Source: a virus | Reading direction: 5' to 3' (one strand) | Virus record (IMG/VR): IMGVR_UViG_3300025133_009823 | DNA: 18,873 bases | Shown: positions 7,661 through 9,821 of the stretch, piece by piece | Layout of the letters: each line of letters begins with the position of its first letter | How positions within the stretch are numbered: the first letter of the stretch is position 1 | Translations under genes and position numbers: made by a program | The notes under the pieces: generated by a model | What the model was told of the DNA's origin: nothing | What the model saw: only the letters and a program-made list of their open reading frames with translations | Databases searched by the model: none

Positions 7661-7735
7661 TGGCAGGCCCCCGGGGGCTCGAACCCCGACCGACGGGTTT
7701 GGAATCCGTCATGCTACCGATTACACCAAGGACCT
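7661..7735 (-). tRNA. tRNA-Trp (CCA), with G73 as in bacterial Trp
   Basis: AGGTCCT-TG-GTGT-AATCGGTA-GCAT-G-ACGGA-TTCCAAA-CCCGT-CGGT-CGGGG-TTCGAGC-CCCCG-GGGGCCT-G-CCA. Confidence 0.7.
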
Positions 7736-7923
7736 ATGAGTCGTCTCGAAGATCTTGCTTCTGCTCCTTCTCACGAAGGCGAGCTTCCTTCTCCTGACGT
7801 GTTTGACTGTTTAACGAACCCTTAGAACCGTTTGCCTTATGCGGCTTGCACATGAGGCATCCAGCTCGACGGTTTTTTGCGCGTCCGCGCTTGAAGTTTG
7901 CCACGAGATCTCTCCACTGTTTT

Positions 7924-7982: not shown

Positions 7983-8798
7983 TTATGCTGTCTGCTGACT
8001 GCAGGTGCAACCACAGGTGCTACACGGAAGGATTTCCTCTGTAGACGTCGGGGGCTTAGCACGTTCTTTTGCAGCAGCCTCTGCCACATGCAGAGGGATG
8101 AAGCGCATCACAGTAGAGGGAAGTTTTGGATGGTGGATTCGATTTTCTGACACTAAGGCAAAGTGTGTACTAATCGTCCGAAGATCTCGCTTCTTTGTGT
8201 TAGTGTTGAGAACTAAGACACCACCCTCTCTTAGCAACTTTGAAAGTGTCTTAGTAGTCTGTCGACGGTGCACTGGGCTATGGTGACAAAGGACATGAGA
8301 CATGACAATGTAGTCGAACGTCCCAATCTCTTCTTCGATATTAGAGATGTCATCGCAGATGAATTCAATCTTATCACTAAGTCCATGCAAAGCTGCAAGG
8401 AACTCCGCATTTCGAATCCGAATGTCGAAAGCATCAACACCTACAACGTTAGCACCCATCTTAGCAAGCTCCACAGAAAACGTTCCGTCAGCGCAGCCAA
8501 GATCTAAAACCCTCTTGCCAGAGATAGACGACGAGAATCCCAGTGACGGAAACGAGTCTTTCATAGCAAATGTGCCAGGAATCACGACCCCTGGGGCAAT
8601 TGTCGTCTGATGATACCACTTTGATCCAAGAATCGCTGGGATATCAAAATCGACCAGGCGCTCCCAAATATCATCGTCAACGGAATCGTAGAGATCTAGA
8701 GCAAGTTGTTCGCCCTTTTTGAAGTTTTGCCTGCTCCAGCGCCGAGCCTTCGACCAACGACCGTTCTTTTTGTACCACTCGGACCAGGTCTCAGACAT
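7983..8798 (-). CDS. Class I SAM-dependent methyltransferase, CmoB-like (possible tRNA U34 modification enzyme), with a Cys-rich C-terminal tail
   Basis: SAM motif I is VLDLGCADGTFS. The stretch GKRVLDLGCADG...VVGVDAF...FDYIVMSHVLCHHSPVHRRQTTKTLSKLLREGGVLVLNT parallels the remembered CmoB pattern (ILDVGCGSGY...VGIDPT...[37 protein letters not shown]). It sits inside the tRNA array. Confidence 0.6.
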   Translation of the reverse strand: MSETWSEWYKKNGRWSKARRWSRQNFKKGEQLALDLYDSVDDDIWERLVDFDIPAILGSKWYHQTTIAPGVVIPGTFAMKDSFPSLGFSSSISGKRVLDLGCADGTFSVELAKMGANVVGVDAFDIRIRNAEFLAALHGLSDKIEFICDDISNIEEEIGTFDYIVMSHVLCHHSPVHRRQTTKTLSKLLREGGVLVLNTNTKKRDLRTISTHFALVSENRIHHPKLPSTVMRFIPLHVAEAAAKERAKPPTSTEEILPCSTCGCTCSQQTA

Positions 8799-8990
8799 TG
8801 TACTTTAACTCCAAGACTAAGTATGAACTGATCGCGAAAAAAATGCTGGGCCGGACGGTAACGCTCCGTCTACTTCTCGTCACAATCGAGGTATGTTTCT
8901 TTTACACCACGAGGGCCAAAAGTGGTTGCTGCATCATCGCAGCCTATGATTCTGGAGCTGTTTTCAACTCTAAGATGGGTATTTGCTCAT

Positions 8991-9626
8991 CTACTGAATC
9001 TCTGAAAAGTTCATCTTTCGGCCGCGAGTCCATCCTTGCTGAATCATCTCATCGACCCTGTCCTTTGAGACCTTAGTAGATCTCTTCTCTTCAAGGCTGT
9101 ACATCCACACTTTACCGAACTGAGAATTTCCCGAGCCCTTTTGGTGTTGACTGTTTGCCTTTCCAATCTTTCGTTTTGATTCATCTGTGTGTCGTCGACC
9201 TGACAAGTCATAAGGCTTCACGATTCCGTCTTCGTGCATCTTCTTGAAGCGGACCGACGCCCTTTTTCGTTGCCCTTCTCGCCAGTCATCATTAGCCCAC
9301 AACTTCTTGAGAGTGCGGCTCCCGCCCTTTCTCTGAGCTTCGGAGCCCCATCGATCACCTCGGCCTCCTGTTCGAAGATTGTAAGTGTCGTCTCTCTCAA
9401 CGAACTCCATGGTAACGATTAGAGCCTCTTCTTCAAAAGCATCGTCCTCAGAGGCATGATGAGATAGTACAGTTTTCCTAAATGACTCAAGCCCGAACTC
9501 GACGATAGCCGCAGAGAGAGCTGTTCCACTTCCCATATAACCGTCATTGAGATCGTCAGTTGTGTGCTTTCCGACGTAGACATGACCATTGATAATGTTT
9601 CGAACTTCGTAGACGTAGTGATGCAT
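8991..9626 (-). CDS. GIY-YIG homing endonuclease (SegB / I-TevI-like) with a NUMOD-like C-terminal DNA-binding region
   Basis: Starts MHHYVYEVRNIINGHVYVGKH (GIY...YVG), followed by NLRTGG and C-terminal KGSGNSQFGK repeats. The track ORF was trimmed to ATG 9624-9626 because the longer version overlaps tRNA 9663..9738. Confidence 0.75.
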   Translation of the reverse strand: MHHYVYEVRNIINGHVYVGKHTTDDLNDGYMGSGTALSAAIVEFGLESFRKTVLSHHASEDDAFEEEALIVTMEFVERDDTYNLRTGGRGDRWGSEAQRKGGSRTLKKLWANDDWREGQRKRASVRFKKMHEDGIVKPYDLSGRRHTDESKRKIGKANSQHQKGSGNSQFGKVWMYSLEEKRSTKVSKDRVDEMIQQGWTRGRKMNFSEIQ

Positions 9627-9662
9627 ACCTCTATGTATCAAACGAGTTCGATAAAGTAAGCA

Positions 9663-9738
9663 AGCGTGCACCGGGATTCGAACCCGGACCTTCTGGGTGG
9701 AAGCCAGAGATGCTAGACCGTTAAAACACCATGCGCGC
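9663..9738 (-). tRNA. tRNA-Gly (UCC)
   Basis: GCGCGCA-TG-GTGT-...-GCAT-C-TCTGG-CTTCCAC-CCAGA-AGGTC-CGGGG-TTCGAAT-CCCGG-TGCACGC-T. Confidence 0.7.
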
Positions 9739-9744
9739 AAGAAG

Positions 9745-9821
9745 TGGTGGGTTGCCTCGGCCACGATCCGAGATCTACTAGATTAAGAGTCCAGTGCTCT
9801 GCCCACTTGAGCTAACAACCC
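9745..9821 (-). tRNA. tRNA-Lys (CUU)
   Basis: GGGTTGT-TA-GCTC-AAGTGGGCA-GAGC-A-CTGGA-CTCTTAA-TCTAG-TAGAT-CTCGG-ATCGTGG-CCGAG-GCAACCC-A-CCA. Confidence 0.65.

What the first reader, a model, noticed from the sequence alone, without database searches (positions are those of the whole stretch)
7983..8798. CmoB-like SAM methyltransferase inside the tRNA array: possible phage-encoded wobble-U34 modification enzyme
Motif I (VLDLGCADG), the post-motif spacing and a long C-terminal stretch follow the remembered CmoB pattern. CmoB makes cmo5U34, which expands wobble decoding of the UNN-anticodon tRNAs for Ala, Pro, Ser, Thr and Val. This window encodes Ala UGC, Pro UGG, Ser UGA and Val UAC. The assignment rests on recalled motifs rather than a search, so confidence is moderate.
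Basis: partly seen in the sequence, partly recalled or inferred. Interest (0 to 1): 0.5.

Follow-up and report, generated by a model that had tools for sequence, protein, structure and literature searches.

The report
Orphan methyltransferase inside phage tRNA array
A real, conserved SAM-dependent methyltransferase gene sits among 41 tRNA genes of a jumbo phage; it is not the bacterial wobble enzyme CmoB, but a rare divergent relative that recurs inside the tRNA and RNA-repair island of an unrelated phage, so it may methylate tRNA, which is unproven.

Summary
The ORF at 7983-8798 (minus strand, 271 aa) is real. It has a GGAG ribosome-binding site, motif I VLDLGCADG, strong generic class I methyltransferase HMM hits, a confident AlphaFold model and dN/dS 0.14 against an ortholog.

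The CmoB assignment fails as membership:
- CmoB equivalog models score 41 and 37 bits against cutoffs of 209 and 275.
- Only the Rossmann core aligns with E. coli CmoB.
- The carboxy-SAM ligand Tyr200 is an invariant Cys, and Arg315 is Ser.
- CmoB's N-terminal domain and a C-terminal insert are missing.
- CmoB is absent from the top structural matches.

The protein belongs to a tiny clade (6-7 clusters among 1.84 billion representatives). That clade branches from a large 'WYH-hairpin' methyltransferase family which is itself homologous to CmoB.

Context is the interesting part. In the window's lineage and in an unrelated low-GC phage, the gene is wedged between co-oriented tRNA genes, near RNA-repair and ribosome-rescue genes (RlaP, Thg1, PTH2 and a release factor; RtcB and tmRNA). 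Three sister lineages instead sit in glycan-modification clusters.

Best reading: an ordinary-SAM O-methyltransferase recruited to act on tRNA/RNA (about 0.4). Main rival: a sugar or small-molecule methyltransferase carried as cargo (about 0.3).

The parts
7983..8798 (-). Methyltransferase coding sequence, 271 aa (stop codon included)
   Evidence: ORF; Pfam class I methyltransferase hits at E about 1e-16; dN/dS 0.14 against L001; AlphaFold pLDDT 88
8809..8812 (-). Shine-Dalgarno-like GGAG, 10 nt upstream of the ATG
   Evidence: Read directly from the sequence
8709..8798 (-). N-terminal 30 residues, basic and Trp-rich (net +6, six aromatic residues); conserved W-x-D/E-x-Y-x-K start in the clade; lower model confidence
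8568..8618 (-). 'WYH' beta-hairpin (residues 61-77, WYHQTTIAPGVVIPGTF), hallmark of the wider family; His63 and Gly75 invariant in the clade
   Evidence: Alignments; strands 65-68 and 71-73 in the model
8484..8510 (-). Motif I, SAM-binding loop VLDLGCADG (residues 97-105)
8280..8297 (-). Post-beta4 motif H168-V-L-C171-H172-H173. Cys171 replaces CmoB Tyr200 and the family's usual Tyr. Its position equals the E-x-x-E-H metal site of Hen1 (inference).
   Evidence: CmoB ligands from PMC7496830; HEN1 ligands from PMC10781085
8001..8024 (-). C-terminal Cys cluster C259-x2-C262-x-C264-x-C266, conserved in the 89% ortholog; low model confidence; function unknown
9663..9738 (-). tRNA-Gly(UCC), the upstream tRNA neighbour in this lineage (adjacent to the gene in L001/L054)
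9007..9662 (-). 656-bp insertion carrying a GIY-YIG/NUMOD3 homing endonuclease, absent from L001 and L054; not part of the methyltransferase unit
7734..7904 (-). 56-aa basic CxxC ORF immediately downstream, conserved in the related phages; no family match
7661..7735 (-). tRNA-Trp(CCA), the downstream tRNA neighbour

Best explanation
The gene encodes an ordinary-SAM (not carboxy-SAM) class I methyltransferase. It belongs to a very small, divergent clade found so far only on phage-like and unassigned metagenomic contigs. That clade branches from the large 'WYH-hairpin' methyltransferase family, the family that also contains CmoB. In this jumbo phage the gene is co-oriented, and probably co-transcribed, with the tRNA genes of a translation-maintenance and RNA-repair island. 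The most likely role is methylation of a hydroxyl group on tRNA, either phage-encoded tRNA or tRNA being repaired. The target could be a ribose 2'-OH or a modified-base hydroxyl, and the active site would use the invariant His63, His168, Cys171 and His172, possibly as a metal site. The benefit would be tRNAs that work better or resist host anticodon nucleases. Shown: the fold, the SAM-binding motifs, purifying selection, non-membership of CmoB, and the recurrent tRNA/RNA-repair context. Inferred: the RNA substrate, the O-methylation chemistry, the metal site and the protective role.
For: Class I methyltransferase identity. Real gene under selection. Rare clade: the exhaustive search finds only P0001 (89% identity), P0002 (38%), P0004 (29%), P0007, P0008 and P0013 before generic relatives, and clade support is 84%. 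Recurrent context: in the window, L001 and L054 the gene lies between tRNA-Gly and tRNA-Trp in a 40-tRNA array. In L040/L057 (GC 38% against 52%) the 29%-identical P0004 gene starts 40 nt after tRNA-Met and ends 5 nt before tRNA-Ser. That array has 9 tRNAs plus a tmRNA, with RtcB about 5.6 kb upstream on the same strand. The only other detectable similarity between the two contigs is a homing-endonuclease C-terminal domain. The window's island also carries RlaP, PTH2 and a release factor, and next to it a metallophosphoesterase, Thg1 and an HD protein; these are the jumbo-phage RNA-repair components listed in PMC7824862. By contrast, none of 30 generic relatives in viral contigs is next to a tRNA gene, and only one has a tRNA anywhere within about 10 kb. 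No promoter-like or terminator-like site on the coding strand separates the gene from its tRNA neighbours. WIN, P0001, P0002 and P0004 share a roughly 25-30-residue N-terminal helical segment and the IPGTFxMK motif, both lacking in P0008 and P0013. The N-terminal 30 residues are basic and Trp-rich. The only characterised relative in the family, CmoB, acts on tRNA.
Against: Three sister lineages in or beside the supported clade lie in glycan-modification clusters with no tRNAs. P0013 lies with a TylF-type methyltransferase, a GT1-like protein and an epimerase. P0008 lies with a carbamoyltransferase and a GDSL protein. P0007 lies with a GT1-like protein. The tRNA-linked members are not resolved as a separate clade by NJ bootstrap (11%). 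There is no recognisable RNA-binding domain. Overall charge is neutral (pI 7.1). Structural neighbours are mostly small-molecule methyltransferases, with a flat score list. Jumbo-phage tRNA arrays carry unrelated cargo such as homing endonucleases and an MVP-like protein, so location alone is weak evidence. P0002, the closest relative outside the lineage, has no tRNA on its 1.6 kb contig.
Confidence: 0.4

Rival explanations
1. It is a sugar, glycan or small-molecule O-methyltransferase, like its sister lineages. It is simply cargo that happens to sit in the gene-poor, insertion-tolerant tRNA region of two phages.
For: P0013, P0008 and P0007 lie in clusters with a TylF sugar O-methyltransferase (167 bits), GT1-like glycosyltransferases, a GDP-mannose-dehydratase/epimerase fragment, a carbamoyltransferase and GDSL acylhydrolases. 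The generic relative in L002 also lies among glycosyltransferases near a tail fibre. In the 288 kb relative and in L054, a second methyltransferase (DUF268/Methyltransf_11) follows the gene. The top sequence and fold matches are small-molecule methyltransferases.
Against: No glycan-related gene was found in the roughly 30 kb seen around the gene in the window lineage or in the 10 kb of L040/L057. Tight tRNA flanking recurs in two phages that share no other detectable gene. The tRNA-linked members share an N-terminal insertion absent from P0008 and P0013.
Confidence: 0.3
2. It acts on wobble 5-hydroxyuridine like CmoB but uses plain SAM, making mo5U34 on the phage's UNN tRNAs. This is the version of the first reader's idea most compatible with the evidence.
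For: It is remotely homologous to CmoB. NCBI names CmoB as a tRNA 5-methoxyuridine(34)/uridine 5-oxyacetic acid(34) synthase (family names). Loss of the carboxylate ligands would favour methyl transfer. Ala UGC, Pro UGG, Ser UGA, Thr UGU and Val UAC tRNAs are present.
Against: The clade is further from CmoB than the generic relatives are: none of P0002, P0004, P0007, P0008 or P0013 hits PF08003 at 1e-5. It lacks CmoB's N-terminal domain and the beta5-alphaE insert. No TrhO, TrhP or CmoA was seen nearby. The presence of UNN tRNAs is expected in a 41-tRNA set.
Confidence: 0.08
3. It is a true CmoB functional equivalent: a carboxy-SAM-dependent cmo5U34 synthase.
For: PF08003 scores just above its gathering score on the core, and the gene lies in a tRNA array.
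Against: The equivalog HMMs fall far below their cutoffs. Tyr200 is Cys171 and Arg315 is Ser228 (ligand roles from PMC7496830). The flanking domains do not align. CmoB is not among the top structural hits.
Confidence: 0.02
4. It methylates a protein of the translation apparatus, for example the phage-encoded release factor or a ribosomal protein.
For: A release-factor gene lies 2 kb away. There are weak hits to PrmA and to protein arginine methyltransferases.
Against: It has no NPPY/DPPY-type motif as in PrmC. No release factor is seen in the 10 kb L040/L057 contig. The protein-methyltransferase hits are no better than the generic ones.
Confidence: 0.07
5. It is a DNA methyltransferase protecting the phage genome.
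For: Phages commonly encode DNA methyltransferases, and there is one weak PHROG hit to a 'DNA methyltransferase' family (E 8.5e-4).
Against: It has no (D/N/S)PP(Y/F/W) or PC-type catalytic motif and no target-recognition domain. The best hits are non-DNA families.
Confidence: 0.03

Closest known systems
CmoB (tRNA U34 carboxymethyltransferase, E. coli b1871; Pfam PF08003, NCBIfam NF011650/TIGR00452)
   Same: Class I fold. The core is homologous (27% identity over about 120 residues; hhalign probability 96.6% for the clade and 99.4% for the wider family). Both share the F-D-x-V-x-S-x-x-V-L-x-H motif after beta4. The gene is associated with tRNA.
   Different: Equivalog scores are about one fifth of the cutoffs. 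Tyr200 is Cys and Arg315 is Ser. There is no CmoB N-terminal domain of about 90 residues, no beta5-alphaE insert and no matching C-terminus. The protein is 271 aa against 323 aa. No CmoA partner was seen.
Uncharacterised 'WYH-hairpin' class I methyltransferases (many hit PF08003; some are labelled 'tRNA (mo5U34)-methyltransferase' by JGI; e.g. P0010, P0036, P0055, P0153)
   Same: N-terminal W-[YH]-H...G..T.G beta-hairpin, motif I, and overall length.
   Different: The generic members have G-V-L-Y-H where the target clade has H-V-L-C-H. They keep an Arg at the CmoB-315 column and the CmoB-like insert. They are not next to tRNAs in viral contigs, and one sits among glycosyltransferases.
Hen1 (3'-terminal RNA ribose 2'-O-methyltransferase of the bacterial Pnkp-Hen1 RNA repair system; plant HEN1, human HENMT1)
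   Same: A class I methyltransferase associated with RNA-repair genes. Potential metal ligands sit at the same post-beta4 positions: H168-x-x-C171-H172 here, E-x-x-E-H in HEN1 (PMC10781085). O-methylation of a sugar hydroxyl would also fit the glycan-cluster relatives.
PH0226 (PDB 1ve3) and other generic small-molecule methyltransferases (MitM, NodS, UbiG, ChlM)
   Same: Best sequence and fold matches for the Rossmann core.

Membership tests
Class I (Rossmann-fold) SAM-dependent methyltransferase | Family HMMs above their curated thresholds | tested here: met
   Methyltransf_25 60.2 bits, Methyltransf_31 59.3, Methyltransf_23 58.4 (cutoff 27 for each); Methyltransf_12 51.8 (cutoff 30); Methyltransf_11 49.4 (cutoff 21.2)
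Class I (Rossmann-fold) SAM-dependent methyltransferase | Glycine-rich motif I and conserved acidic residues after beta1, beta2 and beta4 | tested here: met
   VLDLGCADG at residues 97-105. D99, D122, D150 and D162 are conserved; D162 is invariant in 56 sequences
Class I (Rossmann-fold) SAM-dependent methyltransferase | Seven-stranded alpha/beta fold | tested here: met
CmoB (cmo5U34 synthase) | Score at or above the NCBIfam equivalog cutoffs | tested here: not met
   NF011650 41.4 bits against 209; TIGR00452 36.8 bits against 275; only profile positions 114-233 matched
CmoB (cmo5U34 synthase) | Pfam PF08003 (Methyltransf_9/DUF1698) match | tested here: inconclusive
   30.2 bits against a gathering score of 23.8, but only positions 112-227 of 315, ranked sixth behind generic families. 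Clade relatives P0002, P0004, P0007, P0008 and P0013 do not hit it at 1e-5
CmoB (cmo5U34 synthase) | Tyr200 contacting the carboxymethyl group of carboxy-SAM (PMC7496830) | tested here: not met
   Aligns with Cys171, invariant in all 7 clade members. 38 of 56 family sequences keep Tyr
CmoB (cmo5U34 synthase) | Arg315 contacting the carboxymethyl group | tested here: not met
   The column holds Arg in 34 of 56 family sequences, but Asn in P0002 and Ser in P0004. The target's own row is gapped there; by transitive alignment the residue is Ser228
CmoB (cmo5U34 synthase) | Lys91 contacting the carboxymethyl group | tested here: inconclusive
   The CmoB PWRKG segment does not align with the target in BLASTP, hhalign or MAFFT. 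His63 of the WYH motif is only a guessed positional equivalent
CmoB (cmo5U34 synthase) | CmoB-specific N-terminal domain and C-terminal region | tested here: not met
   Alignments stop at CmoB residues 119-236. The target lacks the roughly 26-residue insert that the generic family shares with CmoB
CmoB (cmo5U34 synthase) | CmoB as nearest structural neighbour | tested here: not met
CmoB (cmo5U34 synthase) | Carboxy-SAM supply (CmoA) and ho5U34 synthesis (TrhO/TrhP) available | not testable with these tools
   None seen among the ORFs of the window and L051.
Hen1 (RNA 3'-terminal 2'-O-methyltransferase) | Metal ligands Glu-x-x-Glu-His plus a downstream His (PMC10781085) | tested here: not met
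   The equivalent positions hold His168-x-x-Cys171-His172, and no conserved downstream His exists in the clade. It is an analogous arrangement, not the same residues
Hen1 (RNA 3'-terminal 2'-O-methyltransferase) | Specific sequence or fold similarity to Hen1 | tested here: not met
WYH-hairpin methyltransferase family (uncharacterised, CmoB-related) | N-terminal W-[YH]-H ... G-x-x-[TI]-x-G beta-hairpin preceding motif I | tested here: met
   W61-Y62-H63 ... G70-V-V-I-P-G75, with strands in the model. Dozens of hits in the exhaustive search start at residues 56-61
WYH-hairpin methyltransferase family (uncharacterised, CmoB-related) | G-V-L-Y-H motif after beta4 | tested here: not met
   Replaced by H-V-L-C-H in the target clade; this is the feature that sets the clade apart

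The most novel reading that the evidence does not exclude
A previously unrecognised component of jumbo-phage RNA-repair and tRNA islands: a metal-assisted, Hen1-like but evolutionarily distinct O-methyltransferase, derived from sugar O-methyltransferases. It would methylate a ribose 2'-OH of phage tRNAs or of healed tRNA ends, making them immune to host anticodon nucleases or to re-cleavage after RtcB/Rnl ligation.
Probability: 0.15. Interest if true: 0.8.

Novelty: new variant of a known kind. Interest (0 to 1): 0.42.

Why it matters
Phage tRNA arrays and RNA-repair genes are seen as counter-measures to host tRNA-cleaving defences. The jumbo-phage survey I read (PMC7824862, section 3.4.9) lists ligases, nucleotidyltransferases, phosphatases, Thg1 and PTH2, but no methyltransferase. 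If this clade methylates tRNA, it would add chemical modification of tRNA to the phage counter-defence repertoire. It would also give a compact new RNA methyltransferase with an unusual His/Cys/His active site. If it is a sugar methyltransferase, the finding is ordinary. Either way, the CmoB label, and the 'tRNA (mo5U34)-methyltransferase' label that pipelines attach to relatives, should not be transferred to it.

Tried and rejected
- CmoB orthology: rejected on HMM cutoffs, ligand residues, domain architecture and fold ranking.
- Hen1 homology: no specific similarity; only a motif-position analogy remains.
- Homing-endonuclease cassette as the reason for the tRNA-array location: weakened. The GIY-YIG gene in the window is a 656-bp insertion absent from L001 and L054, although an endonuclease C-terminal domain also lies near the L040 copy.
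- Conserved partner gene: the genes following the relatives in L054, L049, L037 and L047 are not homologous to one another (11-20% identity).
- Overall charge as an RNA-binding indicator: uninformative.
- Viral-contig scans with P0002, P0008 and the tight profile found no further clade members. The genome scan found only a generic relative in an Elusimicrobia MAG.
- L043 and the 735 kb megaphage hit are generic relatives without tRNA neighbours.
- The afdb50 fold library was unavailable.
- Burroughs & Aravind 2016 (PMC5062991) could not be read.
- The first NJ bootstrap script timed out; a smaller version was used instead.
- Protein (PrmC-like) and DNA methyltransferase readings: rejected for lack of the catalytic motifs.

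Full report
**1. The observation**

The ORF at 7983-8798 on the minus strand is real: 271 aa with an ATG start. A GGAG sits 10 nt upstream of the start (window 8809-8812). Motif I, VLDLGCADG, is residues 97-105 (window 8484-8510).

ARAGORN finds 41 tRNA genes in the window, all on the minus strand, and 35 reach the Rfam tRNA gathering score. The gene lies between tRNA-Gly(UCC) at 9663-9738 and tRNA-Trp(CCA) at 7661-7735. In a near-complete set of 41 tRNAs this carries little weight.

The gene is functional. An ortholog that is 89% identical in protein and 88% in DNA (P0001 on L001) gives dS 0.44, dN 0.063 and dN/dS 0.14.

**2. What the protein is**

- Pfam gives generic class I methyltransferase families at E about 1e-16 for residues 93-206 (Methyltransf_25, _31, _23, _12, _11). 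PF08003 (the CmoB family, DUF1698) is sixth at 30.2 bits and covers only core positions 112-227 of 315.
- NCBIfam ranks CpaM (62.6 bits) and UbiG (61.9) first. The two CmoB equivalog models reach 41.4 and 36.8 bits against cutoffs of 209 and 275.
- PHROGs gives 'methyltransferase' and a 'tRNA methyltransferase' family, again on the core only.
- The best PDB sequence matches are PH0226 and MitM.
- An AlphaFold model built on a 55-sequence alignment is confident (pLDDT 88.2, pTM 0.84). It shows an N-terminal helical segment, a beta-hairpin at residues 65-73, the Rossmann core, and a low-confidence C-terminal tail.
- Neither CmoB nor Hen1 appears in these lists.

**3. The direct CmoB test**

I fetched E. 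coli K-12 cmoB.

- BLASTP aligns only target residues 90-209 with CmoB 119-236, at 27% identity.
- hhalign of the clade profile gives 96.6% probability over the same core.
- **Tyr200** aligns with Cys171. This Cys is invariant in all seven clade members, while 38 of 56 family sequences keep Tyr.
- **Arg315**: the column holds Arg in 34 of 56 family sequences, but Asn in P0002 and Ser in P0004. The target's own row is gapped at that column. The clade alignment places target Ser228 at the equivalent position.
- **Lys91** could not be aligned by any method.
- A profile of the wider family aligns to CmoB at 99.4% probability over CmoB 119-273. This includes an insert of about 26 residues between beta5 and the next helix, which the target lacks.

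So the wider family is truly homologous to CmoB. The target clade is a reduced, divergent offshoot that has lost the carboxy-SAM determinants. If it transfers anything, it transfers a methyl group from ordinary SAM.

**4. The clade**

The word-indexed search found only P0001. The exhaustive search of 1.84 billion representatives found 6955 hits at E up to 1e-3, but only two below 1e-30. The ranking was:

| Protein | Identity | Bits |
|---|---|---|
| P0001 | 89% | 559.3 |
| P0002 | 38% | 149.7 |
| P0004 | 29% | 93.2 |
| P0007 | 35% | 79.1 |
| P0008 | 33% | 78.7 |
| P0013 | 34% | 68.2 |

(P0003, 113.3 bits, is a 1535-residue protein matched in 26 short stretches and was left out.)

After these come generic relatives, many of whose alignments start at residues 56-61, at the WYH motif.

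The clade shares:
- an N-terminal W-x-D/E-x-Y-x-K start;
- the hairpin WYH..EL..G..IPGTF.M;
- the motif-I loop (V[LI]D[LV]G, then CADG in five of the seven members);
- a distinctive S-H-V-L-C-H-H motif after beta4.

In a neighbour-joining tree, {target, P0001, P0002, P0004, P0008, P0013} has 84% bootstrap support. Branching inside that group is unresolved; the group {target, P0001, P0002, P0004} gets 11%. However, those four share an N-terminal helical segment of about 25-30 residues and the IPGTFxMK motif, both lacking in P0008 and P0013.

**5. Genomic context**

*The window's lineage.* The window protein itself occurs on several metagenomic contigs, including a 43 kb NCBI contig. A 90%-identity cluster mate, P0166, lies on a 288 kb contig, so the source is a jumbo phage. 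No known phage matches at the DNA level.

The island around the gene encodes:
- RlaP nucleotidyltransferase;
- a PLD-like protein;
- PTH2 peptidyl-tRNA hydrolase;
- a release factor;
- an MVP-shoulder protein;
- GIY-YIG and HNH endonucleases.

Just beyond the window it also encodes a metallophosphoesterase, a Thg1-like enzyme and an HD protein. These are the RNA-repair and ribosome-rescue components that PMC7824862 describes for jumbo phages. That survey lists no methyltransferase.

In L001 and L054 the gene follows tRNA-Gly directly. The window's GIY-YIG gene is a 656-bp insertion at 9007-9662 that those contigs lack.

*An unrelated phage.* P0004, 29% identical, lies on a 10 kb contig with GC 38% (against 52% for the window).
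- Its gene starts 40 nt after tRNA-Met and ends 5 nt before tRNA-Ser.
- It sits on the same strand as 9 tRNAs and a tmRNA, with an RtcB RNA ligase about 5.6 kb upstream.
- Apart from the methyltransferase, the only similarity between that contig and the window plus L051 is a homing-endonuclease C-terminal domain.

*Controls and counter-examples.*
- None of 30 generic relatives in viral contigs is next to a tRNA gene, and only one has a tRNA anywhere within about 10 kb. One of them lies among glycosyltransferases.
- As a rough calculation of my own, two tRNA-flanked lineages out of four clade lineages with usable context, against none of 30 generic relatives, has a chance probability of about 0.01.
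- Against this, P0013, P0008 and P0007 lie in glycan-modification clusters with no tRNAs. Those clusters contain a TylF-type methyltransferase, GT1-like proteins, an epimerase/dehydratase fragment, a carbamoyltransferase and GDSL proteins.
- P0002's contig is too short to judge.
- No promoter-like or terminator-like site on the coding strand separates the target gene from its tRNA neighbours.

**6. Mechanism**

Shown: a SAM-binding class I fold, with the residues that select carboxy-SAM missing.

Inferred:
- The positions after beta4 that face the transferred group hold Gly and Tyr in CmoB, and metal-binding Glu-x-x-Glu-His in HEN1 (PMC10781085). Here they are His168-x-x-Cys171-His172, with invariant His63 from the hairpin.
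- This suggests a base- or metal-assisted attack by a substrate hydroxyl, that is, O-methylation. O-methylation of a sugar hydroxyl would suit both the glycan-cluster relatives and a ribose 2'-OH in RNA.
- I therefore favour recruitment of a sugar-type O-methyltransferase to tRNA/RNA in the two tRNA-island lineages (confidence about 0.4).
- The cargo sugar or small-molecule methyltransferase is the main rival (about 0.3).
- An mo5U34-forming, SAM-using CmoB-like activity is a minor possibility (about 0.08). True CmoB activity is close to excluded.
- I could not inspect the model coordinates, so the proposed metal site is untested.

**7. Comparison with known systems, and novelty**

The protein is a member of the class I methyltransferase superfamily and of the uncharacterised WYH-hairpin family. 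It is not a member of the CmoB or Hen1 families.

The clade itself, its H-V-L-C-H active-site variant, and its repeated placement inside phage tRNA and RNA-repair islands are not described in the literature I could read. I rate it a new variant of a known kind, of moderate interest. The interest would rise sharply only if a tRNA substrate were shown.

**8. Seen in passing**

- The release-factor gene carries a prfB-type +1 frameshift cassette, GGAGG-TCC-CUU-UGA-C. It lies near one UCA and two CUA suppressor-type tRNAs.
- A protein of 896 aa with major-vault-protein shoulder and repeat domains lies inside the tRNA array.

Noticed in passing
window 5395-6073 (minus strand); frameshift site at 5959-5965: The release-factor gene is split. 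A 37-codon ORF (MKSIIVEIRAGEGG...RRSL) ends at an in-frame TGA (5960-5962), and the +1 frame continues through ...GGHRWQRIPPSEKRGRVHTS...GGQ... to the stop. The site reads GGAGG-TCC-CTT-TGA-C, the same Shine-Dalgarno-like element plus CUU UGA C cassette as the programmed +1 frameshift of bacterial prfB (RF2). The fused product is 225 aa, lacks release-factor domain 1, and has P-P-S at the RF1 'PxT' position.
   Followed up: partly
window 2784-2856, 3987-4061 (anticodon CUA) and 4221-4296 (anticodon UCA): Two amber-suppressor-type tRNAs and one opal-suppressor-type tRNA (ARAGORN labels them Pyl and SeC) lie within about 3.3 kb of the frameshifted release-factor gene. This hints at stop-codon recoding or readthrough in this phage. 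The ORFs examined here are intact under the standard code.
   Followed up: no
window 12198-14888 (minus strand): An 896-aa protein with major vault protein shoulder (94.8 bits) and Vault_3 repeat domains is embedded in the tRNA array. It is conserved in the related phages (887-889 aa), and no PHROG family matches it.
   Followed up: no
window 9007-9662 (ORF listed as 8991-9764, minus strand): A GIY-YIG/NUMOD3 homing endonuclease is a clean 656-bp insertion directly after tRNA-Gly, absent from the 88%-identical contigs L001 and L054 (a presence/absence polymorphism). Its C-terminal domain is 37% identical to a small ORF in L040/L057 (9013-9240), 302 nt downstream of the P0004 gene.
   Followed up: partly
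window 7734-7904 (minus strand): A 56-aa very basic ORF with a C-x-x-C-K-P-H-K motif lies directly downstream of the methyltransferase, and its stop abuts tRNA-Trp. It is conserved at the same position in L054 and the 288 kb relative. It has no Pfam or PHROG match.
   Followed up: partly
L054 2866-3618 and the 288 kb relative: In the closest related phages, a second methyltransferase (250 aa, DUF268/Methyltransf_11) sits between tRNA-Trp and tRNA-Thr, just downstream of the target's ortholog. It is absent from the window.
   Followed up: partly
L051 17905-20816 (continuation beyond window position 1): Next to RlaP, the source contig encodes a metallophosphoesterase, a Thg1-like 3'-5' polymerase and a weak HD-domain protein. 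Together with PTH2 (window 3517-3831) and the PLD-like protein (2898-3470), this forms a dense tRNA repair and ribosome-rescue island.
   Followed up: partly
window 15584-15670 (minus strand): ARAGORN reports a tRNA with an undetermined identity and a two-base 'ga' anticodon call (irregular anticodon loop). Rfam scores it as a tRNA at 43 bits. It is also present in L051.
   Followed up: no
L040/L057 7332-7721 and 1160-2404: The unrelated low-GC phage-like contig that carries P0004 encodes its own tmRNA (tag ANNNSNFEIALAA) inside the tRNA array, and an RtcB RNA ligase, DnaJ and a trypsin-like protease upstream.
   Followed up: no
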